Virus record (IMG/VR): IMGVR_UViG_3300031689_000003
Coordinates: 1 to 60,325 of that record
DNA from: a virus
Taxonomy: Duplodnaviria > Caudoviricetes
Reading direction: 5' to 3' (one strand)
Length of the DNA stretch: 60,325 nt
The notes under the pieces are model-generated. The model searched no databases. It saw only the letters and a list, made by a program, of their open reading frames with translations, and was not told the DNA's origin. A program made the position numbers and the translations under genes. This document shows positions 1-13,818 of this stretch, piece by piece; the stretch's first letter is position 1, and each line of letters starts with the position of its first letter.

Positions 1-819
1 AATTCAGATATCGCACAGTTAACCAAGAAAGACAAAGCTAACTTACTATCTGTCATAGATGGTTATGCAAGCCAATTCACTATCGGAATGGAAGTAGAGA
101 AATCTCAGATGTATAGAGGAGCAGTTAAGCAATATGCATTATTCGCAGGATTTGAGAGAGATTCTTCCTGCGGATATGAAGCAGTAACACATATCTTACC
201 TTTAATACCTAAAGGTGTTTGGAGGAACAAAGTGTATTCTATGATGCACGATGCAAAGAAAGTTATCGAGGATGCATATTCACCAAGTGACTATAGATGT
301 GGCGGTCACATAACTGTTGCAGTTGATGGATTAGATGGTGATGACATTCGTAAAGCAGTACGTAAAAATATGGGTGTAGTTTATGCCCTATTCAGAAAGC
401 GTTTAGGTAATAGCTATTGTAATGGTAACTTACTAATGACTGATAGCGGTAGCGGAAGATACCAAAGTGTATTAGTTAAGAGAAATGTTTTAGAGTTTAG
501 ACTTGTATCAAGGTTTCAATCTGTAAAGCAAATGATGAGAAGATATGAGTTAATCTATGAGTTACTTAATTTCTCTATCAACAATCCAAACGGAAGCCAC
601 AATGCTTTTCTTAAGAAAGTTACACCAATCATTAAATCTATGTATGGAGGTGATATGGAGAAAGTAGCTACAATCATTGACTTAGCTAAAGGATTTAGAA
701 AGTATATGATTAGCGGTAAAGTAAATCGTAAAGTAATTGATTTCGTTGACCCAATGAGAAGACTGAATGCAGATGTCTCTTACGATAGAGACTTACTAAC
801 TAACGGATATAGGGAGTAA
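1..819 (+). CDS. Putative amidoligase (COOH-NH2 ligase, glutamine-synthetase-like fold); 5'-truncated by window edge
   Basis: Frame 1 is open from base 1. Motifs FTIGMEVEK, RDSSCGYEAVT, CGGHITV and VLEFRL match the GxExE...DxS...E...CGxH...EFR pattern of phage amidoligases. Confidence 0.7.
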   Translation, partial: NSDIAQLTKKDKANLLSVIDGYASQFTIGMEVEKSQMYRGAVKQYALFAGFERDSSCGYEAVTHILPLIPKGVWRNKVYSMMHDAKKVIEDAYSPSDYRCGGHITVAVDGLDGDDIRKAVRKNMGVVYALFRKRLGNSYCNGNLLMTDSGSGRYQSVLVKRNVLEFRLVSRFQSVKQMMRRYELIYELLNFSINNPNGSHNAFLKKVTPIIKSMYGGDMEKVATIIDLAKGFRKYMISGKVNRKVIDFVDPMRRLNADVSYDRDLLTNGYRE

Positions 820-827
820 TAATGAGT

Positions 828-853
828 AGAGCACGCATACGGTAGCGTGCTCT
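828..853 (+). other. Stem-loop immediately 5' of hammerhead 1
   Basis: AGAGCACGC-ATACGGTA-GCGTGCTCT, perfect 9-bp stem just after the stop codon at 819. Confidence 0.75.
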
Positions 854-906
854 TTCTGTCTACAGGTGATTGCCTGTACTGATGATTCATAAAGATGAAA
901 CAGAAA
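853..906 (+). ncRNA. Type III hammerhead ribozyme 1 (predicted cleavage after GUC, C860)
   Basis: Stem III TTTCTGT(853-859)/ACAGAAA(900-906); stem I TACAGG-TGATTG-CCTGTA; core CTGATGA 879-885; short stem II TC-ATAAA-GA; GAAA 897-900. Confidence 0.88.
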
Positions 907-922
907 CTTAAAACCTTTAATT

Positions 923-1135
923 ATGAAATTAGTATCAAATTGTGCGAAGTTAGCAATAGTGCTTTACGGAACTATGCTATCATTTATGGTAACAAGATTA
1001 CTGTACGAACTAAGTAATGAAGTAGAGTCTTTAACAGACTTATTCTTCTTTACTACCATAACCTTATTCCTTGGTTTATTAATAGGATGTGCAAGTACGT
1101 TAATCTATAAAGAAGTATCTAAAATCAAAAATTAA
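923..1135 (+). CDS. Small membrane protein (2 hydrophobic segments)
   Basis: ORF track; two hydrophobic stretches; AATT-ATG start. Confidence 0.65.
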   Translation: MKLVSNCAKLAIVLYGTMLSFMVTRLLYELSNEVESLTDLFFFTTITLFLGLLIGCASTLIYKEVSKIKN

Positions 1136-1137
1136 TT

Positions 1138-1269
1138 ATGAAGAAATCATTCAAAGTATTTAGCAGATTGATGGCAATATCATTCGCCATAGTAATACTA
1201 ATAAACCTAATGTCTTGCGGAAGTAGCAAACAATGCAAGAAGCTACCTACCTATGGTTGGTACAAATAG
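1138..1269 (+). CDS. Tiny lipoprotein 1 (43 aa, not in ORF track)
   Basis: MKKSFKVFSRLMAISFAIVILINLMSCGSSKQCKKLPTYGWYK: basic N-terminus, hydrophobic core, LMS-C lipobox. Confidence 0.75.
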   Translation: MKKSFKVFSRLMAISFAIVILINLMSCGSSKQCKKLPTYGWYK

Positions 1270-1378
1270 GCTCAAATCCGACATACTCAGCTATCAAGAG
1301 GTAGCTGAAAGTGTCTTAGGAGTCGTTTGTGAAAGCCGATTTTCGGCAAAATCACTAATAATCACTAATAACAAGCAA

Positions 1379-1543
1379 ATGGAGCAACAAAGCTATTATA
1401 AGGTAAGATACGCAGGAAAACTAATTAAGGTTGTAACTGCCCATTCAAAATGGCAAGCTATCGATATTATTTACGAGAAGAACAAATCGCAATTCCCTTG
1501 GATAATAAGACAAAAATTAACCGCAGTAAAATATAAAAACTAA
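1379..1543 (+). CDS. Hypothetical protein (probable start MEQQSYY)
   Basis: 3' part of ORF 1253..1543; the upstream part overlaps lipoprotein 1 and a structured spacer. Confidence 0.55.
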   Translation: MEQQSYYKVRYAGKLIKVVTAHSKWQAIDIIYEKNKSQFPWIIRQKLTAVKYKN

Positions 1544-1546
1544 ATT

Positions 1547-1687
1547 ATGAAGAAATCATTAAACCAAGAACAAGCAATGTTAAGAGCAGCAGCAATAGTA
1601 TTTGCTATGATAATGTTAATCAGTCTATCTTCTTGTGGCAGTACATCGTGTACAACTCGAGCAGGTAACTATAATACAGTTAGATAA
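1547..1687 (+). CDS. Tiny lipoprotein 2 (46 aa, not in ORF track), paralog of 1138..1269
   Basis: MKKSLNQEQAMLRAAAIVFAMIMLISLSSCGSTSCTTRAGNYNTVR: LSS-C lipobox; TAATG overlap with next gene. Confidence 0.75.
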   Translation: MKKSLNQEQAMLRAAAIVFAMIMLISLSSCGSTSCTTRAGNYNTVR

Positions 1688-1881
1688 TGGCAGATGCATA
1701 TACAGAGCAAGCGATTTATAATTATTTTAAAACGCAAACGGAAATGGAATGTGACAAAGTTTATGATACGGGAGCACACGAGATAGTAATATTTATAAAC
1801 GAGCAGGAGGTTATAGAATGCCTAAACAATGCCTGCGATTACAATATTTATATGCCAATAGAAACTACTAATATTAATTAA
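1687..1881 (+). CDS. Small acidic hypothetical protein
   Basis: ORF track; translationally coupled to upstream gene. Confidence 0.6.
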   Translation: MADAYTEQAIYNYFKTQTEMECDKVYDTGAHEIVIFINEQEVIECLNNACDYNIYMPIETTNIN

Positions 1882-1891
1882 AATCAAATCA

Positions 1892-2128
1892 ATGGATTCA
1901 AAATTTAAGTGGACAGAAATTAAAGTACAACGTTATGCACAATTCTATTGCAACAATAGTAAGTGGTTCAGTTACAATGCAACTGAGAAATCAACACAAA
2001 CTATGGAAGCATTCAAGGAAGCATACAAGTTCAGAGAAGTTTACAATGTCAATACAGATGTAAGCGAAGCATTAAAAACCCTAAAGAGAGAAGGGTATAA
2101 AGTATCTCTCTCACTTTCAGAAAGGTAG
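1892..2128 (+). CDS. Hypothetical protein
   Basis: ORF track; AAATCAAATCA-ATG leader like neighbouring genes. Confidence 0.6.
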   Translation: MDSKFKWTEIKVQRYAQFYCNNSKWFSYNATEKSTQTMEAFKEAYKFREVYNVNTDVSEALKTLKREGYKVSLSLSER

Positions 2129-2135
2129 ATGGCAG

Positions 2136-2167
2136 TTAGGCTATGTCTAAATTTTGTCGTATCTTTG
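2136..2167 (+). promoter_or_regulatory. Early promoter, Bacteroidota -7 box TATCTTTG with upstream TTAGG-N3-TGTCTAAATT
   Basis: TAnnTTTG at 2160-2167; same upstream motif and spacing recur at 4042-4073. Confidence 0.7.
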
Positions 2168-2188
2168 TATAAATCAAATCAGAGGTCT

Positions 2189-2204
2189 GTGTCTTCAAAG
2201 ACAC
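2189..2204. repeat. 16-bp dyad motif copy 1
   Basis: GTGTCTTCAAAGACAC between the promoter and the ATG at 2226. Confidence 0.9.
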
Positions 2205-2225
2205 TCCTCACAAATCAAATCAATT

Positions 2226-3317
2226 ATGTGTATTATTATTATCAAACAAAAAGGTAATGTGATGTCAAGAGAAATCGCAAAGACATCATCAAAAATTAAT
2301 CCTCACGGATTAGGAATCGTTTGGCTCGATACGTTCGAGGTAACTTATCACGAATCCAAAGAGTATCAGCAGTTACTTACTACACGTCCGTTTATCGCAC
2401 ACTTTAGATATGCTACAGTAGGTAAGGTAGGATTATCAAACACGCATCCATTTGTATGCGGTAAGAACAAGGATGAACTATTAATGCAGAATGGAACTAT
2501 CAGAGGGATAGGAACAGATGAGATGTGCGACAGTAAAGTATTAGCTATCTCACTTGGAAACATTAAGAGGCAGGATTGGAAGAGAGAACTTGAGCAATAT
2601 GACTCAAGGTTTTGTAGTGTAAACTTACGCACACGTTCATTCCAAATTTATAATCGTAACCTATATACTTATAGAGATGGCGTTTGGTATTCTAAAACAA
2701 ATGTATTGCAGGACAATTTGGTTGCGGTGTACGGAACTCTTAAGAAAGGTTTTGGTAACTATAATGCATACCTTACAAACTCAAAGCATTTAGGTAGCGG
2801 AGTAACAAACGAAAAGTATCCATTGGTTGTTGATGGATTACCTTACCTGCTACCACAAGCAGGTGTAGGTCACAATGTAAAGGTTGATGTATTCAAAGTA
2901 AGTGATGTAACGTTCAAGAAGTTAGACCAACTTGAAGGACATCCAAGATGGTACAAGCGAAAGCAAATAGAAATTAATATGGATGGCAAGCCAAACCTAA
3001 CTTGTTGGGTTTACTTTAATCCTAAAGTGGTTGACCCAAGAACAGAATTTGTTCAGTCATTTGAGTATAGTCCATACCAAATGCAACAAACTGTAGGAGA
3101 TGTGCAAGATGACTGCACAACTGAAACTGATGAAGCACCATTAATAAATCATTATCAATATGACTTTGGTTGGGATGACAATGACTTTCCAACTAATGAT
3201 ACACCAACGTGTATTGATTGTTACAATGATGTAGAGCACGATGGATTTAGTAATTATTATTGTTCCTCTTGTGGTGGGTGGTTCAAGGAAGACGAGGTCT
3301 TGAAGTATCAAGAGTAG
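2226..3317 (+). CDS. Class II glutamine amidotransferase fused to gamma-glutamylcyclotransferase (AIG2-like) and a C-terminal Cys4 Zn ribbon
   Basis: True start is MCIII (Cys2 Ntn nucleophile). GATase-II motifs: HFRYAT, NTHPF, QNG, CDS. GGCT motifs: VAVYGTLKKG.N, LDQLEGHP.WY.R. C-terminus has CIDC...CSSC. Confidence 0.85.
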   Translation: MCIIIIKQKGNVMSREIAKTSSKINPHGLGIVWLDTFEVTYHESKEYQQLLTTRPFIAHFRYATVGKVGLSNTHPFVCGKNKDELLMQNGTIRGIGTDEMCDSKVLAISLGNIKRQDWKRELEQYDSRFCSVNLRTRSFQIYNRNLYTYRDGVWYSKTNVLQDNLVAVYGTLKKGFGNYNAYLTNSKHLGSGVTNEKYPLVVDGLPYLLPQAGVGHNVKVDVFKVSDVTFKKLDQLEGHPRWYKRKQIEINMDGKPNLTCWVYFNPKVVDPRTEFVQSFEYSPYQMQQTVGDVQDDCTTETDEAPLINHYQYDFGWDDNDFPTNDTPTCIDCYNDVEHDGFSNYYCSSCGGWFKEDEVLKYQE

Positions 3318-3329
3318 TCTAAAAGGGTA

Positions 3330-3345
3330 GTGTCTTCAAGGACAC
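3330..3345. repeat. 16-bp dyad motif copy 2, within extended hairpin 3324-3351 preceding hammerhead 2
   Basis: GTGTCTTCAAGGACAC; AGGGTAGTGTC-TTCAAG-GACACTATCCT. Confidence 0.9.
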
Positions 3346-3350
3346 TATCC

Positions 3351-3401
3351 TCCGTATCAAGATGTTTGTCTTGGCTGATGATTCCATAAGGATGAAACGG
3401 A
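3351..3401 (+). ncRNA. Type III hammerhead ribozyme 2 (predicted cleavage after GUA, A3356)
   Basis: Stem III TCCGT(3351-3355)/ACGGA(3397-3401); stem I TCAAGA-TGTTTG-TCTTGG; CTGATGA 3375-3381; stem II TCC-ATAA-GGA; GAAA 3394-3397. Confidence 0.88.
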
Positions 3402-3418
3402 AACTTAAATTAAATTAT

Positions 3419-3637
3419 ATGTCACCAAAAATTAAAGAAGCTATAGCAGTTTTAAACAAGGCAGGATATGTAACATCATTATGGCACATTAGCGATGTAC
3501 AGAACAACTACGTATGCACCATATCTGAGGCAGAACTTATCTTGGAAGAGGTACTATCGTGCGAACACACAACACAAATTATTAACGAAGCTATCGATTA
3601 CGAAGCTGAACAAAAAGAATTAGAATGTCAAGAGTAA
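3419..3637 (+). CDS. Hypothetical protein (probable start MSPKIK)
   Basis: 3' part of ORF 3362..3637; the upstream part is the ribozyme. Confidence 0.6.
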   Translation: MSPKIKEAIAVLNKAGYVTSLWHISDVQNNYVCTISEAELILEEVLSCEHTTQIINEAIDYEAEQKELECQE

Positions 3638-3771
3638 CTAAGAGTACAGAGATTATTCAAATGTTGGAAAAAACTATCAACAGAGGAGGGGATGAAAAAA
3701 CAATCATCACACTCAAAAGAAAATTAAAAGAACTTAAAAAAAATCATACAGATGGCAATAGTACAGAATGA
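3625..3771 (+). CDS. Small hypothetical protein (48 aa, MSRVTKSTEII...)
   Basis: Manual translation; fills the gap and overlaps both neighbours. Confidence 0.45.
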   Translation: MSRVTKSTEIIQMLEKTINRGGDEKTIITLKRKLKELKKNHTDGNSTE

Positions 3772-4045
3772 ATTAATAACGTTAAAAGATGGGTTTAATT
3801 GGTACAAACTGAATGAAGTTCAAGCCTACAAATGTTGGAATGAATCAGTATTTGAAATATACGCAGTTTTTGACGATGAGACTGAGAGTTTATTAGAATC
3901 GTTAGAGGAAATTAAAGAAGCATTTGAGCAAAATACTGCCGTTTGTATGGCAGTAGGTCAGGCTAAACCTAAACCTTGGTTTCATCAGGCTAAAAAAACC
4001 CTGATATCAGGACATTGGTACGTAAAGGTATCAGACATAAATTAG
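3752..4045 (+). CDS. Hypothetical protein
   Basis: ORF track. Confidence 0.6.
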   Translation: MAIVQNELITLKDGFNWYKLNEVQAYKCWNESVFEIYAVFDDETESLLESLEEIKEAFEQNTAVCMAVGQAKPKPWFHQAKKTLISGHWYVKVSDIN

Positions 4046-4073
4046 GTTTTGTCTAAATTAAGTGTTACTTTTG
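4042..4073 (+). promoter_or_regulatory. Early promoter, -7 box TACTTTTG with TTAGG-N3-TGTCTAAATT
   Basis: Same architecture as 2136-2167. Confidence 0.7.
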
Positions 4074-4100
4074 TTTAATCAATCAGTAAAATCAAATCAA

Positions 4101-4301
4101 ATGAGCGAATACACACCACCAAAAGACGTAAAAGAAATTCAGAACGCAAGTTTAGAGCGTATCAACGAAATTGTTATGGACTCTAATTGGTCGAATCCAC
4201 TAACAATGCGTGCTTGTTTTGACAGAGCACTTGAGTTAGGATACGATGGAGGATTTCCAATATCTTTATATTACAACCTTAAACGAAACATTAAACTTTA
4301 A
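4101..4301 (+). CDS. Hypothetical protein (probable start MSEYT)
   Basis: ATG after AAATCAAATCAA leader, downstream of the promoter. Confidence 0.6.
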   Translation: MSEYTPPKDVKEIQNASLERINEIVMDSNWSNPLTMRACFDRALELGYDGGFPISLYYNLKRNIKL

Positions 4302-4311
4302 ATTAAATCAA

Positions 4312-4554
4312 ATGGCAAAGCTATTACAAGCAGACGGTATAACAAGAGTAGGAGCAGACGTGAGCACTCTTGAGAGTATGCAAAAATTAGTAGGAGGATA
4401 CATAGAAATGGTTCACCTAAATGACGGACAAGTACTTGTCTGTAACGAGGAAGGTTTATTATATGGTCTTCCATTTAATATTAATGCGTCAGAATTAGCA
4501 GGCCTACAAATTGTAGGTGATGCTATTTTATGTGACCGAAACGAAATAAGATAA
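4312..4554 (+). CDS. DUF3846-like protein
   Basis: TLESMQKLVGGYIEMV...LVCNEEG...LPFN...IVGDAI pattern. Confidence 0.7.
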   Translation: MAKLLQADGITRVGADVSTLESMQKLVGGYIEMVHLNDGQVLVCNEEGLLYGLPFNINASELAGLQIVGDAILCDRNEIR

Positions 4555-4557
4555 ACT

Positions 4558-4905
4558 ATGAAACATTTTTTAAGAGACGAAATTATTGCTCAGAAATTTG
4601 GCAATCCAAACAACACCAAATATATCCAACGCCTACAACAGATGTTGGATATGCCTGCATATAGTCAGAAAAATTTTGCAGACACGGGTATGATAACAAC
4701 AAAGAAAGATTTTTTATCTTCTTATGCAACACCACCTACACTACATAAAACGTGTACAGATGTTATAAAGTACATAGGAGGTCACTACATTCAGATGCTT
4801 AGCAGCGGTAAATATTTGCTGAAGTATAATGAAGAGAGAGGTAAGAACTCAAAGGACTTAGATAAACTTGAAGCAATCATTTTTAAAACAATAAACAATG
4901 AGTAA
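4558..4905 (+). CDS. Hypothetical protein
   Basis: ORF track. Confidence 0.6.
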   Translation: MKHFLRDEIIAQKFGNPNNTKYIQRLQQMLDMPAYSQKNFADTGMITTKKDFLSSYATPPTLHKTCTDVIKYIGGHYIQMLSSGKYLLKYNEERGKNSKDLDKLEAIIFKTINNE

Positions 4906-5263
4906 AGAAAAAATCATTTCAGTTACAGACGAGGTTCGTGATATGCTAATACAAAAAAATGAGGCTTATGGGAACTCAGCACTTAAACCGATAAACGTTT
5001 TTAGTAAAGGTAATTCCGCTGAATCATTATGTGCAAGAATAGATGATAAGTTAGCAAGAATACAAAACGTAGGTATAACAGACGAGACAGAAGATACTTT
5101 GTTTGACTTAGCAGGTTACTTAATACTACTTATCATAGCATTAAAAACAGAAGAACAAAATCACAATGAAGAAGTGGTAGGACTAACTGACCATTATTTT
5201 AAATTTCACAGTAACGATACAATAAGAAAAAGAAATGCGGAAAACGAATTCGGACAATCATAG
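4898..5263 (+). CDS. DUF1599 / nucleotide-modification-associated (all-alpha NTP pyrophosphohydrolase-like) protein
   Basis: KNEAYGNS...RIDDKLARI...EDTLFDLAGYLIL pattern. Confidence 0.7.
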   Translation: MSKEKIISVTDEVRDMLIQKNEAYGNSALKPINVFSKGNSAESLCARIDDKLARIQNVGITDETEDTLFDLAGYLILLIIALKTEEQNHNEEVVGLTDHYFKFHSNDTIRKRNAENEFGQS

Positions 5264-5387
5264 GACAGACTCTTCAACAAGAGCAAGGGTGTCTTCAAAG
5301 ACACTAAATTGCAACAAGCTATTAACAGAACTATTTGAATCATTTGGCGAGCAATATCAGACCAAATTAAATAAAGAATTAAAATGA
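5235..5387 (+). CDS. Small hypothetical protein (50 aa, MRKTNSDN...)
   Basis: Manual translation; ATGA overlap with next gene. Confidence 0.45.
   Translation: MRKTNSDNHRTDSSTRARVSSKTLNCNKLLTELFESFGEQYQTKLNKELK
5289..5304. repeat. 16-bp dyad motif copy 3
   Basis: GTGTCTTCAAAGACAC. Confidence 0.9.
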
Positions 5388-5686
5388 AATTAGATATTTT
5401 TAATAAGTACGTAGACGAGGTGTGTAACCTTTTCAACATAGACGAAGAGACATTATTTATAAAATCAAAACGAAGAGATATAGTGGATGCAAGACATCTA
5501 CTATATTATTTGTGTTATACAAGACCAATGAGAATAGTTTATATACAAGAGTATATGGCAGACAGAGGTTACACAATCAATCACTCCTCTGTAATCCACG
5601 GTATCTCTATTGTCGGAAAGAAACTCGACAATGATACGGACTACGTGAAGAGCGTAAAAGACATACAGAAATGGCACTTAGTTTAG
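5384..5686 (+). CDS. DnaA C-terminal (domain IV)-like HTH protein 1
   Basis: VCNLFNI.EE.L..KSKRRDIVDARHLLYYL...NHSSVIHGI resembles the DnaA_C signature. Confidence 0.7.
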   Translation: MKLDIFNKYVDEVCNLFNIDEETLFIKSKRRDIVDARHLLYYLCYTRPMRIVYIQEYMADRGYTINHSSVIHGISIVGKKLDNDTDYVKSVKDIQKWHLV

Positions 5687-6102
5687 AAGACATATTCCAA
5701 CAAGCAAAGCAAGATGATTACTGCGTAGAATTAAACGGTAAGGGTTATCAAGCAAGGCTTGTATACGGAATCAAGATAGTAAAAGATAATGAGACAGAAG
5801 AGGTTGTAATCTATAACACCGCAGTAAACGGAAGTTATTATCATATCATCCCAACAGAGACCATTAAAACATTTACAGAAAACTCTTGGAGATACGGAGT
5901 ATATAATTTATCTTTGTCTAACTATCGCACAAAACTCGACATGATTGAGAAGAGAATCAAGACAGAAATCAACGGCAGGAAGTCGGAGAAACAAATCGCA
6001 GGACTCAAATCACATAGAGAAAGAATCCTCGGCAAGTACACCGAAGTAAATCAAAAATTAAATCAATTAAATTCTAATCACAATGAAACAAGTAAAAACT
6101 AA
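5671..6102 (+). CDS. Hypothetical protein with C-terminal coiled coil
   Basis: ORF track. Confidence 0.6.
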   Translation: MALSLEDIFQQAKQDDYCVELNGKGYQARLVYGIKIVKDNETEEVVIYNTAVNGSYYHIIPTETIKTFTENSWRYGVYNLSLSNYRTKLDMIEKRIKTEINGRKSEKQIAGLKSHRERILGKYTEVNQKLNQLNSNHNETSKN

Positions 6103-6733
6103 GGAACTGACTACCTTTGAAAAATTGTCAGCAATCAATGTCAACTCAAAAGTTGAGAAGAAAAACAATCTAACTTATTTATCTTGGGCGTGGGCTTGGA
6201 GCGAAGTAAAGAAAGCGTGTCCCGATGCAACTTATCAAATGGGTGAGACAGAATATGATGAAGCACTTGGCTTTATGTGTCACACGTCTGTATGTATTGA
6301 AGGTGAAACTTTAGAGATGTGGTTACCCGTAATGGATGGAGCGAACAAATCTATGAAGAAGGTAGGTTATAAGTACACGACTCGTTATGGAGATAAAGAA
6401 GTAGCAGCGGCTACAACTTTTGATATCAACAAAACAATGATGAGGTGTTTAGTTAAAAACTTAGCTATGTTCGGTTTAGGTATTTATATTTATGCAGGAG
6501 AAGATATGCCTGCATCTGATGAAGTTGTAATGGTAACTGTTCCTCCCGTTGCAGTAGCAGTAGGTAAGAAATTATCTCTTAAGAAAGGTGATGGAGCATA
6601 TGCTAAAGTAATGGCCTATGCTAAAGAAAATAAAGCACAAGGAGCAAAGAGGTTAGTTGATATGGTTGCACTTAAGTATGCGATGACTAACGTTATTAAG
6701 ACTGAAATAACTAATATTGTAAATTCTAAATAA
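6083..6733 (+). CDS. sak: Sak (Rad52-like, DUF1071) single-strand annealing protein
   Basis: VEKKNNLTYLSWAWAW...LPVMD...INKTMMRCLVKNLAMFGLGIYIYAGED. Confidence 0.88.
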   Translation: MKQVKTKELTTFEKLSAINVNSKVEKKNNLTYLSWAWAWSEVKKACPDATYQMGETEYDEALGFMCHTSVCIEGETLEMWLPVMDGANKSMKKVGYKYTTRYGDKEVAAATTFDINKTMMRCLVKNLAMFGLGIYIYAGEDMPASDEVVMVTVPPVAVAVGKKLSLKKGDGAYAKVMAYAKENKAQGAKRLVDMVALKYAMTNVIKTEITNIVNSK

Positions 6734-6734
6734 T

Positions 6735-7472
6735 ATGTTAGAAGATAAAATATTAGAGAAGTTAAGAGACGATAAGCAGTACTACGGTAAGTTTGGTAAA
6801 ACCTATATGAGTAATTCAGACATAGGAACTTTACTTAACAATCCTACAGAGTATGGAGTTAGTCTTCCTGACAATGCAAACTTTGCAAAAGGAAGATACT
6901 TTCATCAACTGATACTTGAACCATCTAAGGCGAAGGATGTAGTTTTTGTAAAATCCTCATCGAGGAATACTAAACTATACAAGGACTATATTGCAGAAGA
7001 AAATTTGGAATTTGCTTTATTAGAAAAAGAGGGAGAGGAAATCAGAGGTCTTGTAGATAAGATGATGAGTAACCTTGATATGTATGATATGATACGTGAC
7101 CCTAACAATGAGTATGAAGTACCTGCAATCGCAGAGATTAAGGGTAAGATGTGGAAAGGTAAGGCTGACATCGTAGGTAAGGATATGCTTTATGATATCA
7201 AAACAACATCCAAGATTTCAGATTTTAAATGGTCAGCATCTCGTTATAATTATGACTCGCAATGTTACATATATCAGAAGCTATTCAATAAGCCTCTTAT
7301 CTTTTTAGTAATTGATAAGCCTACGGGAATGATGGGTGTGTATAGACCAACTGAAGAGTTTATAAAGAGAGGTGAATTAAAAGTAGAGAAAGCTATAGAG
7401 GTACACGATACTTTTTTTAGTGAGAAATCAACTGAGGATATATCAGCATTTTATTATGATGAGTTTCTTTAG
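6735..7472 (+). CDS. PD-(D/E)XK exonuclease (RecE/DUF3799-like)
   Basis: SNSDI, GRYFHQLILEP, KGKADI...DIKTT, YNYDSQCYIY; adjacent to sak. Confidence 0.82.
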   Translation: MLEDKILEKLRDDKQYYGKFGKTYMSNSDIGTLLNNPTEYGVSLPDNANFAKGRYFHQLILEPSKAKDVVFVKSSSRNTKLYKDYIAEENLEFALLEKEGEEIRGLVDKMMSNLDMYDMIRDPNNEYEVPAIAEIKGKMWKGKADIVGKDMLYDIKTTSKISDFKWSASRYNYDSQCYIYQKLFNKPLIFLVIDKPTGMMGVYRPTEEFIKRGELKVEKAIEVHDTFFSEKSTEDISAFYYDEFL

Positions 7473-7617
7473 AAAATTAGTGTCTTTAAGGACACAAAGG
7501 CGTGTGTTATGGTTTAACGTTCCAATGAACTGCAACACTCGTAGGGAGAGAGAGATTCTAATCCTAAATACCATAGAACTATTGGAGCAAAATATAAACA
7601 TTACTAAAATCAATTAA
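7456..7617 (+). CDS. Small hypothetical protein
   Basis: 3' part of ORF 7420..7617 from the first ATG. Confidence 0.45.
   Translation: MMSFFRKLVSLRTQRRVLWFNVPMNCNTRREREILILNTIELLEQNINITKIN
7480..7495. repeat. 16-bp dyad motif copy 4
   Basis: GTGTCTTTAAGGACAC. Confidence 0.88.
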
Positions 7618-7619
7618 TT

Positions 7620-7919
7620 ATGTCACAAAACGTAGAAAAAGTATTTGCAGATGGATTCTCATTCAAGAGAAGAGAAGGTGCTCCCGAGTTTGTTATCGGT
7701 AGACAATCAATCAAGGTAGATGAAGCAGTAGCCTTCCTGAAAGCCAACGTAAAAAATGGTTGGGTAAACATAGATATCAAACAATCAAAGAAAGGAACTT
7801 TCTATTGTGAGTTAGATACTTGGGAAGCTAAGCCACAAACATCAGCACCTACAACTGCAGAACTTGCAGCGACTGCACCTGCACCTGCACCTACAACTGC
7901 AGATGATGTACCATTTTAA
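7620..7919 (+). CDS. Single-stranded DNA-binding protein (putative)
   Basis: Compact beta domain, A/P/T linker, acidic tail DDVPF; follows sak and exonuclease. Confidence 0.72.
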   Translation: MSQNVEKVFADGFSFKRREGAPEFVIGRQSIKVDEAVAFLKANVKNGWVNIDIKQSKKGTFYCELDTWEAKPQTSAPTTAELAATAPAPAPTTADDVPF

Positions 7920-7945
7920 CAAACAAGTTTAAGCTTGTTTTAATT

Positions 7946-7975
7946 GGGGAGGTTGTAAAAACCCTCCCCTTTTTT
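7946..7975 (+). terminator. Intrinsic terminator
   Basis: GGGGAGG...CCTCCCC followed by T6. Confidence 0.85.
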
Positions 7976-8010
7976 ATCTCTAATAGTGTGTCGTATTAAC
8001 CAAAACATTA

Positions 8011-8150
8011 ATCCCTACTACCACAAGGAAGATATACTATAATATTTTTTCTTTACATATTACATAGTAATAATAGACATTAACGGCATCTATACTGATT
8101 ATCAATTACTTACAACTATTTAATTAACATAAATCGACAACAAAATGACA
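8011..8150. repeat. Origin-like element copy A (homologous to 58857-59010)
   Basis: Shared blocks ATCCCTA, ATACTATAATATT, ATAGACATTA, WATCAATTASTTACAA, AAATCGACA. Confidence 0.65.
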
Positions 8151-10574
8151 TATAACGTCACAATCTTTAAGAATATCAAGGAAACTGAAGCACCTTTCCA
8201 CAGAGAACTATCTGTTGTGCTCAATAGAATAAAGGATGGAGCAACAAAAGACTTAGTAAAAAAGATTCGTATTGAGACTAACAAGTCTGAACGAAACGAA
8301 TTAAAAAAGAAATTACCTGCTATTTGTTTTAGTGGTGTATTCAATAAAAGAAATGATTCTTCACTAATGGAACATAGTGGAATTATTTGTTTGGACTTCG
8401 ATGGTTATCCAAAGAAGAAAATATTATTAGAACATAAAAACACCTTGACAAATAATAAGTTTGTATACTGCGTGTTTATATCTCCATCGGGAAATGGACT
8501 TAAAGTTTTAGTCAAAGTACCAACTGATGTAGATAATCATAAAAACTATTTCAATTCATTAGACAGACACTTTGCATCTGAATACTTCGACAAGATGTGT
8601 AGCAATGTATCTCGAGTTTGTTATGAATCATATGACCCTTTACTTCATATAAACGAAGATTCTCTTTTATGGGATAAGATAGAAGAGCCTGAGTATGTTG
8701 CAGTAGACCAATCAAGAGATGCACCAAGTATTCCAATTACAGACGAGAATAAAGTAGTAGAGATTTTAGTAAAATGGTGGTGTAAGAAATATCCAATGGT
8801 TGAAGGTCAACGAAACCAAAACGTTTTTATTCTTGCAATGGCATTCAATGACTATGGTATTAACAAGTCTCTTGCAGGATATGTTCTTGGTCAATACATA
8901 ACTGCGGACTTCACGCAGTCAGAGATTAATAGAACGATTGATTCAGCGTATGCAAATACATCAAACTTTGCAACTAAATACTATGAAGATGAAGAGAGAA
9001 TTAATTCTATAAAGACCAAGTTAAAAAGAGGAGTATCAAAAAAAGAAATTCGCTATCAGTTACAAGAGTCAAACATTGATAGCGAGACAATAGAGTCAGT
9101 ACTTAATCGTGTAGAGAAAGAAAATTCTGTTGCTAACTTTTGGACTAAGACAGACAAGGGAGTTATAAAGATAGTTCACGTATTATTCAAGCAATTCCTT
9201 GAAGATAATGGATACTATAAGTTTTGTCCCGAGGGAGGGAAAAGTTATGTGTTTGTATGTGTTACAAACAATTTAATATCTCATACATCAGAGAAAGAAA
9301 TAAAGGATTTTATACTTGGACACTTAATTGATTTGGATGACTTAAGTATTTACAATTACTTCGCTGATAATGTAAGGTACTTTAGAGAGGAATTCCTGAC
9401 ACTTCTTGGAACAATAGACATCTACTTCATCGCAGATACTAAAGAGTCTTCTTATCTATACTATAAGAATTGTGCGGTTAAGATAACTAAAGGTGGAATA
9501 GAGTCGATTGACTACTTAGACCTTGGAGGTTACGTTTGGAAAGACCACGTTATAGATAGAGTATTTACTGAATGTGTTATCGCAAGTGATTACAAGACAT
9601 TCATATCAAGAGTATGTGGAGATGATGAAGCAAGAGTAAAGACAATGGAATCAACGATTGGGTTTATGATGCACGGTTATAAAAATCTAAGCTATTGTCC
9701 TGCCGTTATATTAAATGATGAAATTATATCAGACAATCCCGAGGGTGGTACGGGTAAAGGAGTTTTTATGAATGCATTGTCTCAGATGAAAAAGGTAGTT
9801 ATTATAGATGGTAAGCAGTTTGCTTTTGAGAAAGCATTCCCTTATCAAACCGTATCTGCCGATTCTCAGATATTAGTATTTGATGATGTAAAGAAACACT
9901 TTGACTTTGAAAGATTGTTTTCAGTAGTAACTGAAGGGTTGACACTCGAAAAGAAAAATAAAGATGCAATCTCTATTCCGTTTTCTAAGTCACCTAAAAT
10001 TGCAATAACAACTAACTATGCTATAAAGGGTTCGGGTAATTCATTTGCACGTAGAAAGTGGGAGATAGAGTTATTCCAACACTATAACAAAAACCATACT
10101 CCTCTTGATGAGTTTAAGAAACATTTCTTTGCTGATTGGGATGATGAAGATTGGTGTGGGTTTGACAACTATATGATTTATTGTTTAAAGAATTACCTGT
10201 CTACAGGATTAGTCAAAGGAAAGTTTGTCAACTTAAAGGTAAGACAATTATCTGCTGAATCATCACACGATTTTATTGAATGGTGTGGGTTAGTTCAAGG
10301 CCATCAGCCACATACTTCATTGCAAATTAATGCAAAGATTATGAAGCAAGACTTATACTTCGACTTCATCGGAGAGTATCCTGACTACGGGCCGAAAGCT
10401 AAGATGACAATATCAAGAACTCGTTTTTATAAATGGTTGGTAAGTTATGCTTTGTTTACTACCGGGCAGCAACCGGAAGAAGGAAGAGACCCATCCGGTA
10501 GATGGATGATAATAAAGCCAAGAGTATTGCCAACTTCAACACAATCAGAAATGTTTGATGCAAATGGAAACTAA
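8145..10574 (+). CDS. Primase-helicase (BT4734/VirE-N-like primase domain, PriCT-1, P-loop helicase)
   Basis: KKKLPAICFSG, HSGIICLDFD, FISPSGNGLKVLV, NVSRVCYESYDP; EGQRNQNVFILA (PriCT); Walker A PEGGTGKG, Walker B ILVFDD. Confidence 0.88.
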   Translation: MTYNVTIFKNIKETEAPFHRELSVVLNRIKDGATKDLVKKIRIETNKSERNELKKKLPAICFSGVFNKRNDSSLMEHSGIICLDFDGYPKKKILLEHKNTLTNNKFVYCVFISPSGNGLKVLVKVPTDVDNHKNYFNSLDRHFASEYFDKMCSNVSRVCYESYDPLLHINEDSLLWDKIEEPEYVAVDQSRDAPSIPITDENKVVEILVKWWCKKYPMVEGQRNQNVFILAMAFNDYGINKSLAGYVLGQYITADFTQSEINRTIDSAYANTSNFATKYYEDEERINSIKTKLKRGVSKKEIRYQLQESNIDSETIESVLNRVEKENSVANFWTKTDKGVIKIVHVLFKQFLEDNGYYKFCPEGGKSYVFVCVTNNLISHTSEKEIKDFILGHLIDLDDLSIYNYFADNVRYFREEFLTLLGTIDIYFIADTKESSYLYYKNCAVKITKGGIESIDYLDLGGYVWKDHVIDRVFTECVIASDYKTFISRVCGDDEARVKTMESTIGFMMHGYKNLSYCPAVILNDEIISDNPEGGTGKGVFMNALSQMKKVVIIDGKQFAFEKAFPYQTVSADSQILVFDDVKKHFDFERLFSVVTEGLTLEKKNKDAISIPFSKSPKIAITTNYAIKGSGNSFARRKWEIELFQHYNKNHTPLDEFKKHFFADWDDEDWCGFDNYMIYCLKNYLSTGLVKGKFVNLKVRQLSAESSHDFIEWCGLVQGHQPHTSLQINAKIMKQDLYFDFIGEYPDYGPKAKMTISRTRFYKWLVSYALFTTGQQPEEGRDPSGRWMIIKPRVLPTSTQSEMFDANGN

Positions 10575-12027
10575 TGTAATAGAAAGACGAGTCGGCTTTT
10601 CAAATGAGATGATGTTTAATCAATGCTCTTTGTTAGCCGAAATCGTTAATAAAACAAAAGAGGTAAAGGTAGGTCGAGGCAAAAGTGTACAAGTAATTAC
10701 TCAAAAAATGTATACAACAAGTAGCGAGGCTATAGATAAAATAAACAGAAGCGTTCAACATTACAAAGAACTAATGGAATCTAAAGAAACAAAAATAAAA
10801 TTAAGAGATTATCAGAAACAAATTAGCAGAGATGGGTGCATAAAGTTATTCAGCAATGGATTTGTATATCTTGCTATGGAGGTAAGAACGGGAAAGACAC
10901 TAACAAGTTTAAGTATGGGTGTACTAATGGGATGTAAGAACGTATTGTTTGTTACAAAAAAGAAAGCTATCAGTAGTATTGAATCTGATTATAATCTTCT
11001 TGCTCCTGACTATAACATCACGGTAATAAACTATGAGAGCATACACAAATTACCCGAGTCGGGTAATTACGATTTAATAATTCTTGATGAAGCACATGGA
11101 ATGGGAGCGTTTCCTAAACCAAGCAAGAGGGCTAAACAAGTAAAAGATATTATTAAAAATTATAGCCCCTATGTTATTCTATTGTCGGGTACACCAACTC
11201 CCGAATCATATAGTCAGATGTATCATCAAGTGTATGGAATACCAAAGAATCCTTTTACATCCTTCAAGAATTTTTATAGGTTCTGTGATGAGTATGTTAA
11301 TGTAACCGACAGAAAGATAAATGGCCTAATGATTAGGGATTACTCTAAAGGTCTTGACAAAATTGTAGAAGCAATGAAGCCACATACAATTAGCTATTCT
11401 CAAAAAGAAGCAGGCTTTAAAGTAAATACTCGTGAGCATTTTATGTATGTACCAATGAGCGAATTAACTTATAAGTTAACGGCCAAGTTAAAAAGAGATT
11501 TAGTTATAGAGGGTAAGGAGGAAACTATATTAGCTGATACACCCGTAAAACTTATGATGAAGCTACATCAAATGTTCTCGGGAACGGTTAAGTTTGAGTC
11601 AGGCAACTCTACTATATTAGATTTATCTAAAGCAACACACATCTACGATAATTTTGGTGATGTTAAGATTGGAATCTTCTATAAGTTTAAGGAAGAACTT
11701 AAAGCTTTAATGCAAGTCTATGGAAAAGAAAACCTAACTACAGAACTTAGTGTCTTTGAAGACACAGAAAAATCTATTGCATTACAAATTGTTTCGGGAC
11801 GTGAGGGAATATCTTTACGAAAGGCAAAGGCTTTGGTGTACTACAATATAGACTTTAGTGCTACAAGCTATTGGCAATCAAGAGATAGAATGACAACTAA
11901 AGATAGATTAGAAAGTGATGTGTATTGGATATTTTCAGAGAACGGAATTGAAAAAGAAATCTACGCAGCGGTAAGCAAGAAGAAGGATTATACTGTTCGA
12001 CACTTTAAAAGGGATTTATTATCTTAG
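10555..12027 (+). CDS. SF2 (SNF2-like) helicase
   Basis: LRDYQ, MEVRTGKT, IILDEAH, LSGTP, SGREGISL, QSRDR. Confidence 0.88.
   Translation: MMQMETNVIERRVGFSNEMMFNQCSLLAEIVNKTKEVKVGRGKSVQVITQKMYTTSSEAIDKINRSVQHYKELMESKETKIKLRDYQKQISRDGCIKLFSNGFVYLAMEVRTGKTLTSLSMGVLMGCKNVLFVTKKKAISSIESDYNLLAPDYNITVINYESIHKLPESGNYDLIILDEAHGMGAFPKPSKRAKQVKDIIKNYSPYVILLSGTPTPESYSQMYHQVYGIPKNPFTSFKNFYRFCDEYVNVTDRKINGLMIRDYSKGLDKIVEAMKPHTISYSQKEAGFKVNTREHFMYVPMSELTYKLTAKLKRDLVIEGKEETILADTPVKLMMKLHQMFSGTVKFESGNSTILDLSKATHIYDNFGDVKIGIFYKFKEELKALMQVYGKENLTTELSVFEDTEKSIALQIVSGREGISLRKAKALVYYNIDFSATSYWQSRDRMTTKDRLESDVYWIFSENGIEKEIYAAVSKKKDYTVRHFKRDLLS
11750..11765. repeat. 16-bp dyad motif copy 5 (inside helicase CDS)
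   Basis: GTGTCTTTGAAGACAC, encodes SVFEDT. Confidence 0.9.
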
Positions 12028-12031
12028 CTAA

Positions 12032-12277
12032 ATGGCAACCGAGCAACAGATACAGAGTAAGAGAATTAAACAACTTGAAGAAGAGGGTTATTTTGTTCTC
12101 AAATTAATCAAAACAAATAAGAATGGAATCCCTGATATCCTTGCTATTCCTCCTGACTCCAATGTAATTTTTAGTGAAGTTAAAACACCTCAAGGTAGAC
12201 TATCCAAACTACAAGAGTACAGATTAAAAGAGTTAAAAAAATATGGATTTAGGACAGAAGTATATCGAGGAGAATAG
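12032..12277 (+). CDS. VRR-NUC domain nuclease / resolvase
   Basis: EQQIQ...GIPDILA...FSEVKTPQGRLSKLQ. Confidence 0.85.
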   Translation: MATEQQIQSKRIKQLEEEGYFVLKLIKTNKNGIPDILAIPPDSNVIFSEVKTPQGRLSKLQEYRLKELKKYGFRTEVYRGE

Positions 12278-12596
12278 GTTTCACATAGAAGAATGGTTTG
12301 CCGATAAAATGGTCGGGTTACCTTTTGATACCCAAACAGAAATTATATACTCTATTGCAACTAACGTTCACTCGTTTCCATTAGTGGAGGGTTGGACTCA
12401 AGAAATCTTTGGAGTTGTAAAAGAAGACCATTTATTTTATGCACTTGAATATCTAAATGAAAAGAACGGAATTCCTATTATTTGTGATATAAATTTTATC
12501 GAATCAGACGAATACTTAGACGCTATATTAAATAAAAATACAATTGAATCATATGAAATTAAAATTAAAAAGACATCAGTTCCCAAGAGAAGTTAA
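12243..12596 (+). CDS. Hypothetical protein
   Basis: ORF track. Confidence 0.55.
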   Translation: MDLGQKYIEENRFHIEEWFADKMVGLPFDTQTEIIYSIATNVHSFPLVEGWTQEIFGVVKEDHLFYALEYLNEKNGIPIICDINFIESDEYLDAILNKNTIESYEIKIKKTSVPKRS

Positions 12597-13116: not shown

Positions 13117-13117
13117 A

Positions 13118-13312: not shown

Positions 13313-13320
13313 CAAACAAA

Positions 13321-13734: not shown

Positions 13735-13779
13735 AAATAAAAGAAAAATTATTATAGAATATATATTACTTATTGTTTT

Positions 13780-13807
13780 GAATGCCCTGCTTTTACACAC
13801 GGCATTC
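13780..13807. terminator. Possible terminator at the convergence of the two arms
   Basis: GAATGCC...GGCATTC inverted repeat between convergent genes; long loop. Confidence 0.4.
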
Positions 13808-13818
13808 ATTATTCTCTT

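What the first reader, a model, noticed from the sequence alone, without database searches (positions are those of the whole stretch)
3324..3421. Hammerhead ribozyme 2: same cassette, fully covaried stems, with the 16-bp dyad forming the upstream hairpin
Seen: the architecture repeats after the GATase-GGCT stop (3317). Stems I and III differ in sequence from copy 1 (TCAAGA/TCTTGG vs TACAGG/CCTGTA; TCCG/CGGA vs TTTCTG/CAGAAA) but still pair. The core, loop I (UGUUUG vs UGAUUG), loop II (AUAA vs AUAAA) and downstream AAACTTAAA are retained. This covariation argues for selection on the RNA structure. The upstream hairpin here is built from the genome-wide GTGTC-N6-GACAC motif, which links the two systems.
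Basis: partly seen in the sequence, partly recalled or inferred. Interest (0 to 1): 0.88.

Follow-up and report, generated by a model that had tools for sequence, protein, structure and literature searches.

The report
Phage hammerhead ribozyme between two genes
This short stretch between two genes of a marine phage is a self-cutting hammerhead RNA of a variant already known and tested in a Pseudomonas phage, so it is a real but ordinary member of a known kind.

Summary
Window 3349-3403 (+) has every invariant hammerhead core base. It folds as a three-way junction with stem III open (type III). The predicted cut is after A3356. A 28-nt hairpin (3324-3351) sits directly upstream; its tip is one of nine GTGTC-N6-GACAC dyads in the genome.

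Two paralogues alone would be thin evidence, but relatives settle it. A pattern scan plus a covariance model gave 88 distinct relatives in viral contigs, with 90.9% of cells paired against 32-47% when partners are slid. A model built without the window's own sequences scores the two copies 70.1 and 59.2 bits and finds nothing else in 60 kb.

It is not new. Stem II opens with a U10.1-U11.1 mismatch, a natural variant described by Perreault et al. 2011. The same model hits phage PaP3 at 71.3 bits, and that paper's Figure S6 legend lists a PaP3 hammerhead among active variants.

Rfam misses the group: 30.6 and 32.1 bits for the two copies, against a cut-off of 48.5.

Likely role (inferred): cutting a multi-gene transcript, leaving a hairpin-capped upstream RNA and a 5'-OH downstream RNA about 20 nt before the next ATG.

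The hairpin-ribozyme pairing is conserved: 46 of 87 relatives against 56 of 1740 control positions.

Self-cleavage was not tested here.

The parts
2226..3317 (+). Upstream gene (363 aa), GATase_4-like N-terminal part plus GGACT (gamma-glutamyl cyclotransferase) domain; stop codon TAG at 3315-3317
   Evidence: Pfam GGACT E = 1.7e-21; GATase_4 E = 8.6e-5, at 22 bits just under its cut-off of 23. PHROG 2520 gamma-glutamyl cyclotransferase.
3324..3351 (+). Upstream hairpin: 11-12 bp stem with a G3327-U3348 wobble that pairs only on the + strand. Its tip is the GTGTC-N6-GACAC dyad (3330-3345). It abuts stem III with no gap; U3351 can belong to either helix.
   Evidence: Fold. Stem extension of 6 bp beyond the dyad on the + strand against 2 on the - strand. 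12-bp hairpin found.
3351..3355 (+). Stem III, 5' strand (positions 16.5-16.1, UCCGU)
   Evidence: Pairs with 3397-3401. Columns covary in relatives.
3356..3356 (+). Cleavage-site nucleotide A17; predicted scission between 3356 and 3357 (GUA triplet)
   Evidence: Position in the Rfam and R1 alignments. H17 is A in 60 of 88 distinct relatives. Cleavage itself not tested.
3357..3374 (+). Stem-loop I: 6 bp plus a U-G closing pair, with loop region UGUUUG
   Evidence: Six of 7 stem I pairs change on both sides in relatives; 99.8% of cells paired.
3375..3381 (+). Core C3-U4-G5-A6-U7-G8-A9 (CUGAUGA)
   Evidence: Exact match to the core. CTGATGA in 87 of 88 relatives; the other has C at the variable N7.
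3382..3393 (+). Stem-loop II: U10.1-U11.1 mismatch, then U-A, C-G, C-G, with loop AUAA
   Evidence: Rfam marks the 10.1-11.1 position as non-standard. The inner pair covaries as CG/GC/UA/AU.
3394..3401 (+). G12-A13-A14 and stem III 3' strand (A15.1-A15.5: ACGGA)
   Evidence: GAAA invariant in 88 of 88; A15.1-U16.1 in 88 of 88.
3402..3418 (+). A/U-rich leader (AACTTAAATTAAATTAT) between the ribozyme and the start codon
   Evidence: In relatives the ATG lies a median 25 nt after C15.2 (69 of 82 within 15-35 nt).
3419..3637 (+). Downstream gene, 72 aa, no family match
   Evidence: ORF list. No Pfam or PHROG hit.
828..906 (+). Copy 1 of the same cassette: hairpin 828-853 (terminator-like, 9 bp, 6 G-C), hammerhead 853-906, cut predicted after C860; next ATG at 923
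   Evidence: 59.2 bits with the leave-out model.
2189..2204 (.). One of the eight other GTGTC-N6-GACAC dyads (2189, 5289, 7480, 11750, 20031, 42684, 58071, 59677). None of them is next to a hammerhead.
   Evidence: By the ORF list, five of the nine window sites lie inside long ORFs.

Best explanation
Window 3349-3403 (+ strand) encodes a type III hammerhead self-cleaving ribozyme of the U10.1-U11.1 variant class, the class to which the phage PaP3 hammerhead belongs by sequence. It lies in a 101-nt spacer between two co-directional early genes of a marine podovirus that probably infects Flavobacteriia.

What is shown:
- All invariant core bases are present.
- The three stems are kept by compensatory change across 88 distinct relatives.
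- The 55-nt core is identical in a syntenic relative whose flanks are 85% identical.
- The cassette geometry is constant: upstream stop, hairpin, ribozyme, about 20 nt, ATG.

What is inferred:
- The element is transcribed as part of a multi-gene RNA and cuts itself after A3356.
- The upstream mRNA then ends in a stable hairpin plus a 5-6 nt tail carrying a 2',3'-cyclic phosphate. This resembles the 3' end of a terminated transcript, but RNA polymerase has not stopped.
- The downstream mRNA begins with a 5'-OH base-paired in stem I, 62 nt before its start codon (17 nt of open A/U-rich leader follow the ribozyme).
- The two cistrons thereby become separate molecules that can differ in stability and translation.
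- The abutting hairpin probably also stacks on the short (5 bp) open stem III.
For: Core and fold:
- Rfam Hammerhead_3 aligns end to end.
- The minimum-free-energy fold is hairpin plus three-way junction, with 0 of 200 shuffles as stable.

Family:
Of 122 matches, window included, 77 passed my type III filter, giving 61 distinct sequences.
- On those 61, 90.8% of cells pair against 33-47% when slid, and 12 of 17 pairs change on both sides.
- A model search added members that the pattern could not find. On the resulting 88 distinct sequences, 90.9% of cells pair against 32-47% slid, 15 of 17 pairs change on both sides, and 0 of 500 shuffles reach any measure.
- The leave-out model R2 holds no window sequence. 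It scores 70.1 bits (E = 3.8e-16) and 59.2 bits, with no other hit at E <= 1 in 60,325 nt searched with filters off.
- Siblings in the same contigs carry the canonical G10.1-C11.1 stem II within the same architecture.

Activity by proxy:
- PaP3 NC_004466.2:45416-45470 scores 71.3 bits with R1 and has the same U-U stem II.
- blastn finds 85-87% identity over 47 nt in listed Pseudomonas phages, which make up 71 of the 72 matching records.
- Perreault et al. [quoted passage not shown] They list a PaP3 intergenic hammerhead among active core variants.

Selection:
- In syntenic contig L033 the flanks are 72-85% identical and the copy 2 core is identical.
- The copy 1 orthologue there has two stem I pairs changed on both sides.

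Geometry:
- An ATG of an ORF of at least 40 codons was found for 82 of 88 relatives, a median 25 nt after C15.2.
- A same-strand upstream stop was found for 74 of 88, a median 39 nt before H17.
- A hairpin of at least 8 bp ends at the ribozyme's 5' edge in 46 of 87 relatives, against 56 of 1740 random positions.

Processing idea in print: Perreault 2011 section 6 and the review PMC6765202 section 13.
Against: - No cleavage was measured for this sequence.
- G10.1, whose N7 is usually said to help bind a catalytic metal (recalled, not from a call), is replaced by U. Loop II (AUAA) departs from the family's commonest AAAA. The rate could therefore be low.
- Rfam scores are below the gathering cut-off.
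- Contigs from RNA libraries run across both predicted cut sites: X5 record 28 covers 3249-3789 and X3 record 17 covers 442-1141. Uncut RNA or carried-over phage DNA exists in those samples. The tool warns that DNA can be present, so this neither supports nor refutes cleavage.
- My seed set was chosen by a filter that required pairing, and the model search rewards pairing, so percentages paired are inflated by construction. The number of pair types and the slid controls are less affected.
- I could not see the supplement showing which PaP3 variation was assayed. That it is the U-U mismatch is my inference from the PaP3 sequence.
- The biological role is inferred from geometry only.
Confidence: 0.82

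Rival explanations
1. A hammerhead-shaped but catalytically dead or very slow RNA. It is kept as a structured 5' leader or spacer, for example to control translation of the downstream gene, rather than for cleavage.
For: The U10.1-U11.1 mismatch replaces the most conserved stem II pair. RNA-library contigs bridge both predicted cut sites. The element ends a fixed ~20 nt before the ATG, a position where structure could affect initiation.
Against: All 11 invariant core bases are kept in 88 of 88 relatives, apart from one change at the variable N7; a mere scaffold would not need them. The same variant in PaP3 is listed among active ribozymes. Canonical G-C siblings occupy equivalent positions in the same genomes.
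Confidence: 0.08
2. The hairpin plus pyrimidine-rich tail is chiefly an intrinsic terminator or attenuator, and the ribozyme acts only on read-through transcripts as a back-up.
For: The copy 1 hairpin (828-853, 9 bp, 6 G-C, tail TTCTGTCT) is the top terminator-like site on the + strand of 1-14000. In related contigs some GTGTC dyad hairpins are followed by T runs: 6 of 61 dyads not next to a hammerhead.
Against: The copy 2 hairpin is followed by TCCGTATC and is not called terminator-like. Only 2 of 34 hammerhead-adjacent dyads have a T-rich tail. A ribozyme placed entirely downstream of an efficient terminator would rarely be transcribed, yet its core is under strong constraint.
Confidence: 0.06
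3. The two same-sense hammerheads (cuts after 860 and 3356) excise the 2,496-nt RNA between them, which is then ligated into a circle or spliced out.
For: There are two ribozymes of one polarity flanking a block of genes. Perreault 2011 raise this possibility for prophage arrays and report that they could not detect such products.
Against: No joint joining 3356 to 861 appears in four RNA runs (table 5: none), though contigs are a weak test. Other contigs carry 4-5 ribozymes at single-gene spacing, which fits punctuation better than one circle.
Confidence: 0.03
4. A chance resemblance with no function.
For: Short motif; AT-rich genome; Rfam score below the cut-off.
Against: Leave-out model E = 3.8e-16. 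The core is identical in a relative whose flanks are 85% identical. Covariation across 88 sequences.
Confidence: 0.01

Closest known systems
Hammerhead of Pseudomonas phage PaP3 and other Bruynoghevirus phages (Perreault et al. 2011, PLoS Comput Biol, PMC3088659)
   Same: Type III. Same core, same stem II (UUCC-NAAA-GGAU with U10.1-U11.1), same loop I pattern (UGUGUG against UGUUUG), a GUA cut site, and an intergenic position just before a start codon. Scores 71.3 bits with the model built here. Listed Pseudomonas phage records are 85-87% identical over 47 nt.
   Different: In PaP3 the ATG follows C15.2 by 4 nt, so stem III overlaps the initiation region; here 20 nt intervene. I saw no upstream GTGTC hairpin in PaP3 or PaP4. 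The host is a gammaproteobacterium, not a flavobacterium. There is one copy per genome in the two records searched, against two here.
Rfam RF00008 Hammerhead_3 (clan CL00010)
   Same: Full-length alignment to all 54 model positions with the same three helices and core.
   Different: 30.6 and 32.1 bits against a gathering score of 48.5. Even a canonical G10.1-C11.1 sibling reaches only 45.6 bits. None of 15 related loci gives a gathering-level hit. This phage group is therefore not annotated by Rfam's cut-off.
Arrays of hammerheads flanking genes in prophages; HHphage of haloviruses HF1/HF2 (Perreault et al. 2011)
   Same: Several ribozymes flank single genes or short blocks, with processing of long phage transcripts proposed. 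HHphage lies 13 nt before a start codon, and a transcript 5' end was mapped within 3 nt of its cut site. Related contigs here carry 4-5 copies within 1.4-4.5 kb.
   Different: HHphage has a two-base core insertion and is discussed together with the related variant HHmeta, which needed high Mg2+. The present element has an unaltered core apart from 10.1-11.1. In the passages I read of that paper, a conserved hairpin abutting stem III is not mentioned.
RiboJ-type synthetic ribozyme insulators (recalled from memory, not from any call)
   Same: A hammerhead placed between a variable upstream RNA and a coding region, so that the downstream mRNA gets a defined 5' end.
   Different: RiboJ is engineered and carries its extra hairpin downstream of the ribozyme. 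Here the hairpin is upstream and would cap the 3' end of the preceding mRNA.

Membership tests
Hammerhead ribozyme, type III | Invariant core: C3 U4 G5 A6 N7 G8 A9, G12 A13 A14, A15.1-U16.1, H17 not G | tested here: met
   CUGAUGA 3375-3381, GAA 3394-3396, A3397-U3355, A3356. The core definition is taken from Perreault 2011 methods.
Hammerhead ribozyme, type III | Three helices around the core, with stems I and II closed by loops and stem III open | tested here: met
   The minimum-free-energy fold gives this junction. Rfam and the R1 model align all three helices.
Hammerhead ribozyme, type III | Helices maintained by compensatory substitutions in relatives | tested here: met
   15 of 17 pairs have two-sided changes. 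90.9% of cells pair against 32-47% slid. 0 of 500 shuffles reach the observed values. Caveat: the sequences were selected by a pairing filter and a structure-aware model.
Hammerhead ribozyme, type III | Watson-Crick pair at 10.1-11.1 (normally G-C) next to the core | tested here: not met
   U3382 opposite U3393. This is a documented natural exception that supports activity (Perreault 2011 section 8). It lowers the expected rate but not the family assignment.
Hammerhead ribozyme, type III | Score at or above Rfam's gathering threshold for RF00008 | tested here: not met
   30.6 bits against 48.5. Canonical siblings also fail, at 45.6 bits, so the cut-off is strict for this whole phage group.
Hammerhead ribozyme, type III | Loop I-loop II tertiary contact that gives fast cleavage at low Mg2+ | not testable with these tools
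   The loops are conserved in sequence: loop I mostly UGNGUR, loop II NAAA in 75 of 88. That hints at a contact. Copy 2 has UGUUUG and AUAA.
Hammerhead ribozyme, type III | Site-specific self-cleavage giving 2',3'-cyclic phosphate and 5'-OH | not testable with these tools
   Only proxy evidence: the PaP3 relative is listed as active (Figure S6 legend; the supplement itself is closed). RNA contigs are uninformative.
PaP3-type U10.1-U11.1 hammerhead subgroup | Stem II UUCN-NAAA-NGAU, loop I UGNGUR, 6-7 bp stem I, short open stem III | tested here: met
   The model built from the subgroup without window sequences scores 70.1 bits. With model R1, PaP3 scores 71.3 bits and PaP4 74.5 bits.
Intrinsic (Rho-independent) terminator, for the upstream hairpin | G+C-rich hairpin followed directly by a U tract | tested here: not met
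   The copy 2 hairpin is followed by TCCGTATC and is not among the terminator-like sites. The copy 1 hairpin is listed.

The most novel reading that the evidence does not exclude
The hairpin-hammerhead unit is a 'terminator surrogate'. The ribozyme, not termination, creates a hairpin-capped 3' end 5-7 nt past the stem while polymerase reads on.

The conserved GTGTC...GACAC tip of that hairpin keeps its sequence across phages while the outer stem covaries. The same tip also occurs in 5' leaders, in true terminators and inside genes. It could therefore be a recognition element for a phage-encoded factor that couples RNA cutting or RNA stability to the infection programme.
Probability: 0.2. Interest if true: 0.6.

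Novelty: new member of a known kind. Interest (0 to 1): 0.3.

Why it matters
The biological role of bacterial and phage hammerheads is still called open in the 2019 review I read (PMC6765202 section 13).

This element adds little as a single case. Its family, however, gives a large and regular data set:
- fixed spacing to the flanking stop and start codons;
- a hairpin abutting stem III in about half of the members;
- canonical and U-U forms side by side in one genome.

Cultured relatives exist in which the processing hypothesis can be tested: Flavobacterium phage elemoF, and Pseudomonas phages PaP3 and PaP4.

The work also shows that Rfam's cut-off leaves this whole phage group unannotated.

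Tried and rejected
- **Rfam at gathering threshold.** Nothing in the window or in 15 related loci. The hammerhead appears only with the E-value threshold.
- **megablast of window 1-8000 against phages.** One irrelevant 196-nt match.
- **RNA evidence.** The look-up of sequencing runs listed marine metatranscriptomes. I laid four of them, X1, X2, X3 and X5, from three studies. All are kept as assembled contigs.
  - Contigs bridge both predicted cut sites (X3 record 17, 442-1141; X5 record 28, 3249-3789). One contig starts at 3398 (X1 record 3).
  - No joints and no pile-up of ends were reported.
  - Contigs cannot show ends, and DNA may be present, so I draw no conclusion for or against cleavage or circularisation.
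- **Virion-RNA-polymerase idea.** I considered that the dyad could be an N4-like hairpin promoter (recalled idea). The 3088-aa ORF gave no Pfam or PHROG match, so I dropped it as untestable here.
- **Cultured relatives.** Of five complete relatives searched with R1 (MW202828.1, elemoF, phi38:1, phi46:3, Gundel_1), only elemoF had a hit: 39.3 bits, a canonical form.
- **ONT-cappable-seq paper on LUZ24 (PMC10914365).** My term search of the main text found no mention of a ribozyme or cleavage.
- **Literature on this variant.** 'hammerhead' plus 'U10.1' returned only Perreault 2011. 'hammerhead' with LUZ24, PaP3 or Bruynoghevirus listed 15 of 70 papers, and only Perreault 2011 among those holds 'hammerhead'. 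Supplements (Figure S6 and Dataset S1 of Perreault 2011) are closed. They may already contain marine sequences of this family, and they would show which PaP3 variation was assayed.

Full report
**What is there.** The window is a complete 60,325-nt virus record. Its left 13.7 kb carries small genes on the + strand.

The finding lies in the 101-nt spacer between a 363-aa gene and a 72-aa gene. The 363-aa gene has a GATase_4-like part and a GGACT domain, and its stop is at 3315-3317. The 72-aa gene has no family match and starts at 3419.

Reading the sequence gives, in order:
- a hairpin at 3324-3351, whose tip is GTGTC-TTCAAG-GACAC (3330-3345);
- UCCGU (3351-3355), A3356;
- a 6-7 bp stem-loop (3357-3374);
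- CUGAUGA (3375-3381);
- a short stem-loop (3382-3393);
- GAAA (3394-3397), and ACGGA (3397-3401), which pairs back to 3351-3355.

RNAfold returns hairpin plus three-way junction as the minimum-free-energy structure of 3318-3421, with z = -3.43 and 0 of 200 shuffles as stable.

**Is it more than chance?**
- The bare pattern CTGATGA-N6-30-GAAAC occurs twice, at 879 and 3375, against 0.20 expected.
- Rfam finds nothing at gathering level. With the E-value threshold it aligns Hammerhead_3 end to end. Copy 2 scores 30.6 bits, E = 6.6e-4 over 2.7 kb. Copy 1 scores 32.1 bits, E = 1.5e-5 over 161 nt.
- The decisive test came from relatives.

**Relatives.**
- I scanned viral contigs for the stem II string with stems I and III left free.
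- Of 122 matches, window included, 77 had a perfect stem I next to the core and at least 3 bp of stem III. These gave 61 distinct sequences. The other 45 were circularly permuted type I hammerheads or matches in coding sequence.
- On the 61, 90.8% of cells pair, against 33-47% with partners slid.
- A covariance model from them (R1) then found further members in the same contigs that the pattern could not find. Pooled, there are 108 hits and 88 distinct sequences.
- On these 88, 90.9% of cells pair against 32-47% slid. 15 of 17 pairs change on both sides, and 0 of 500 shuffles reach any measure.
- Caveat: my filter and the model both reward pairing, so the percentage paired is partly built in. 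The variety of pair types (up to six per position in stem I) is not.
- A second model built without any window sequence (R2) scores copy 2 at 70.1 bits (E = 3.8e-16) and copy 1 at 59.2 bits. It reports nothing else at E <= 1 in the whole window with filters off.

**Orthology.** Contig L033 is syntenic with the window at 72-85% nucleotide identity.
- The 55-nt core of copy 2 is identical there, although the surrounding 1.3 kb is 85% identical.
- The copy 1 orthologue differs by two two-sided and one one-sided change in stem I, and all three pairs still form.

**The odd base pair.** Stem II starts with U3382 opposite U3393, where hammerheads normally have G10.1-C11.1.
- This explains part of the low Rfam score. 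The rest is the cut-off itself: a canonical sibling (L047:11464-11518) reaches only 45.6 bits against 48.5. No gathering-level hit appears in 15 related loci.
- The mismatch is not new. Perreault et al. [quoted passage not shown] They add that this mismatch supports more cleavage than any other mispair (section 8).
- Their filters rejected mispairs next to the core unless activity was measured.

**The nearest known relative.**
- blastn of 3324-3421 against phage records matched 72 records, 71 of them Pseudomonas phages. Listed hits are 85-87% identical over 47 nt.
- R1 scores PaP3 (NC_004466.2:45416-45470, - strand) at 71.3 bits and PaP4 at 74.5 bits.
- The PaP3 sequence has the same UUCC-UAAA-GGAU stem II and a GUA site. 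It runs into its start codon 4 nt after C15.2.
That the assayed variation is the U-U mismatch is inferred from the sequence.

**Cassette geometry.** Figures are across the 88 distinct relatives.
- An ATG opening an ORF of at least 40 codons was found for 82, a median 25 nt after C15.2; 69 of the 82 lie at 15-35 nt.
- A same-strand ORF stop was found for 74, a median 39 nt before H17.
- A perfect hairpin of at least 8 bp ends within -2 to +6 nt of the ribozyme's first modelled base in 46 of 87 relatives. The figure for random positions in the same loci is 56 of 1740.
- In copy 2 the hairpin abuts stem III with no gap.
- Some contigs carry arrays: five ribozymes in 4.5 kb of L027, four in 3 kb of L020, four in 1.4 kb of L039. 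This matches the arrangement that Perreault et al. describe for prophages.

**The dyad.**
- GTGTC-N6-GACAC occurs 9 times in the window against 0.02 expected. Only the site at 3330 is extended into a long stem: 6 extra pairs on the + strand, including a G-U that would be A-C on the other strand.
- By the ORF list, five of the nine lie inside long ORFs.
- In the ribozyme-bearing loci there are 95 distinct dyads:
  - 34 sit 6-12 nt (one at 21 nt) before an H17, and 30 of these have extended stems;
  - 32 others are intergenic, 15 of them extended and some followed by T runs;
  - 29 lie inside ORFs of at least 80 aa, only 2 of them extended.
- 31 of 87 ribozymes have this dyad (last base C or T) in their abutting hairpin. 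Others have unrelated G+C-rich hairpins.
The dyad clearly also has a life of its own.

**Mechanism.**
- Shown: the sequence and structure constraints, and the geometry.
- Inferred: self-cleavage after A3356 within a multi-gene transcript. This would give an upstream RNA ending in hairpin plus UCCGUA with a cyclic phosphate. It would also give a downstream RNA with a base-paired 5'-OH end.
- This is the processing role proposed in print for phage hammerheads. I add that the hairpin would make the ribozyme-made 3' end look like a terminated one.
- The copy 1 hairpin is itself terminator-like; that of copy 2 is not.

**Evidence that did not help.**
- Four marine RNA libraries hold the phage at 99% identity or more, but only as contigs. 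Contigs bridge both cut sites. This could be uncut RNA or DNA.
- No circular or spliced joint was seen. The test is weak.

**Who carries it.**
- The large terminase is 74.6% identical to an uncultured podovirus and 45.5% identical to Flavobacterium Elemovirus phages. Weaker matches go to Cellulophaga, Tenacibaculum and Maribacter phages.
- Of five complete relatives searched, only elemoF has a family hit, a canonical form 20 nt before an ATG.
- In prokaryote genome contigs, 14 of the 80 loci searched with R2 have a strong hit. Nine of the 14 are contigs binned to Patescibacteria-group lineages, Saccharibacteria among them.

**Verdict.** This is a genuine, well-supported hammerhead ribozyme of a known variant class in a known kind of context. 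It is a new member of a known kind. The modestly new points are the conserved abutting hairpin, the reuse of a phage-wide dyad for it, and the fact that standard annotation misses the group.

Noticed in passing
alignment A2 (88 distinct hammerheads from the window and loci L005-L120): The 10.1-11.1 state tracks the cleavage-site base. U-U goes with A17 in 57 of 66. G-C goes with C17 in 14 of 17. Fisher p = 1.4e-7, not corrected for relatedness. Both kinds co-occur in single contigs (for example L020, L022, L027, L047). Window copy 1 is the only U-U member with C17.
   Followed up: partly
L025:9883-9937, L117:3455-3507; L059:853-910, L013:3568-3625, L039:9449-9504: There are further stem II variants in the same family. 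Two members have an A10.1-A11.1 mismatch. Three distinct sequences have an extra U between A9 and a canonical G-C stem II.
   Followed up: no
L015, L034, L046, L026, L075, L076, L096 (viral contigs): Circularly permuted type I hammerheads (stem I open, stem III closed) carry the same U-U stem II string. They were among the 45 pattern matches that my type III filter set aside.
   Followed up: partly
window 2189-2204; L033:2196; L093:7809; L058:3440; L027:7184 and 7988: The GTGTC dyad recurs in a second fixed context: ...CAGAGGTCT-dyad-TCCTCACAAATCAAATCAA...ATG. The outer pairs covary there, and it lies just upstream of a start codon. In the window it follows what looks like a Bacteroidetes-type promoter (TTTG...TAnnTTTG; the consensus is recalled, not tested).
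   Followed up: partly
window 11750, 20031, 42684, 58071, 59677: Five of the nine dyads lie inside long ORFs with no stem extension. The spacer reads TTCAAA or its complement TTTGAA, so the 16-mer has an orientation. This fits a DNA-level or protein-recognition role besides RNA hairpins.
   Followed up: partly
L027:3473, L058:7253, L093:8948: Dyad hairpins with extended stems are followed by T runs (and preceded by an A run in L027). They look like ordinary intrinsic terminators built on the same tip.
   Followed up: no
window 13819-23085 (-): A 3088-aa ORF has no Pfam or PHROG match at E <= 0.001. It lies at the switch from + strand early genes to - strand structural genes.
   Followed up: partly
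window 57152-58741 (-): A phage-encoded GroEL-like chaperonin (PHROG 5725, E = 7.8e-130). One dyad (58071) lies inside it.
   Followed up: no
window 6083-7472 (+): A Sak-like single-strand annealing protein and an exonuclease VIII-like gene lie side by side, a recombination module (PHROGs 659 and 412).
   Followed up: no
L135, L141, L159, L169, L170, L174, L182, L198, L209 (genome contigs): Strong hits of the same hammerhead family (62.6-76.1 bits) occur on contigs binned to Saccharibacteria, Woesebacteria, Parcubacteria and other Patescibacteria-group MAGs. These may be phage or prophage contigs. Two of the loci (L169, L189) hold two copies.
   Followed up: no
L033:667-721: The orthologue of window copy 1 has CUGACGA (C at the variable N7) and lacks the G+C-rich hairpin of copy 1. 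It has a 5-bp AAGCA/TGCTT stem instead, which recurs in L068, L093 and L120.
   Followed up: no
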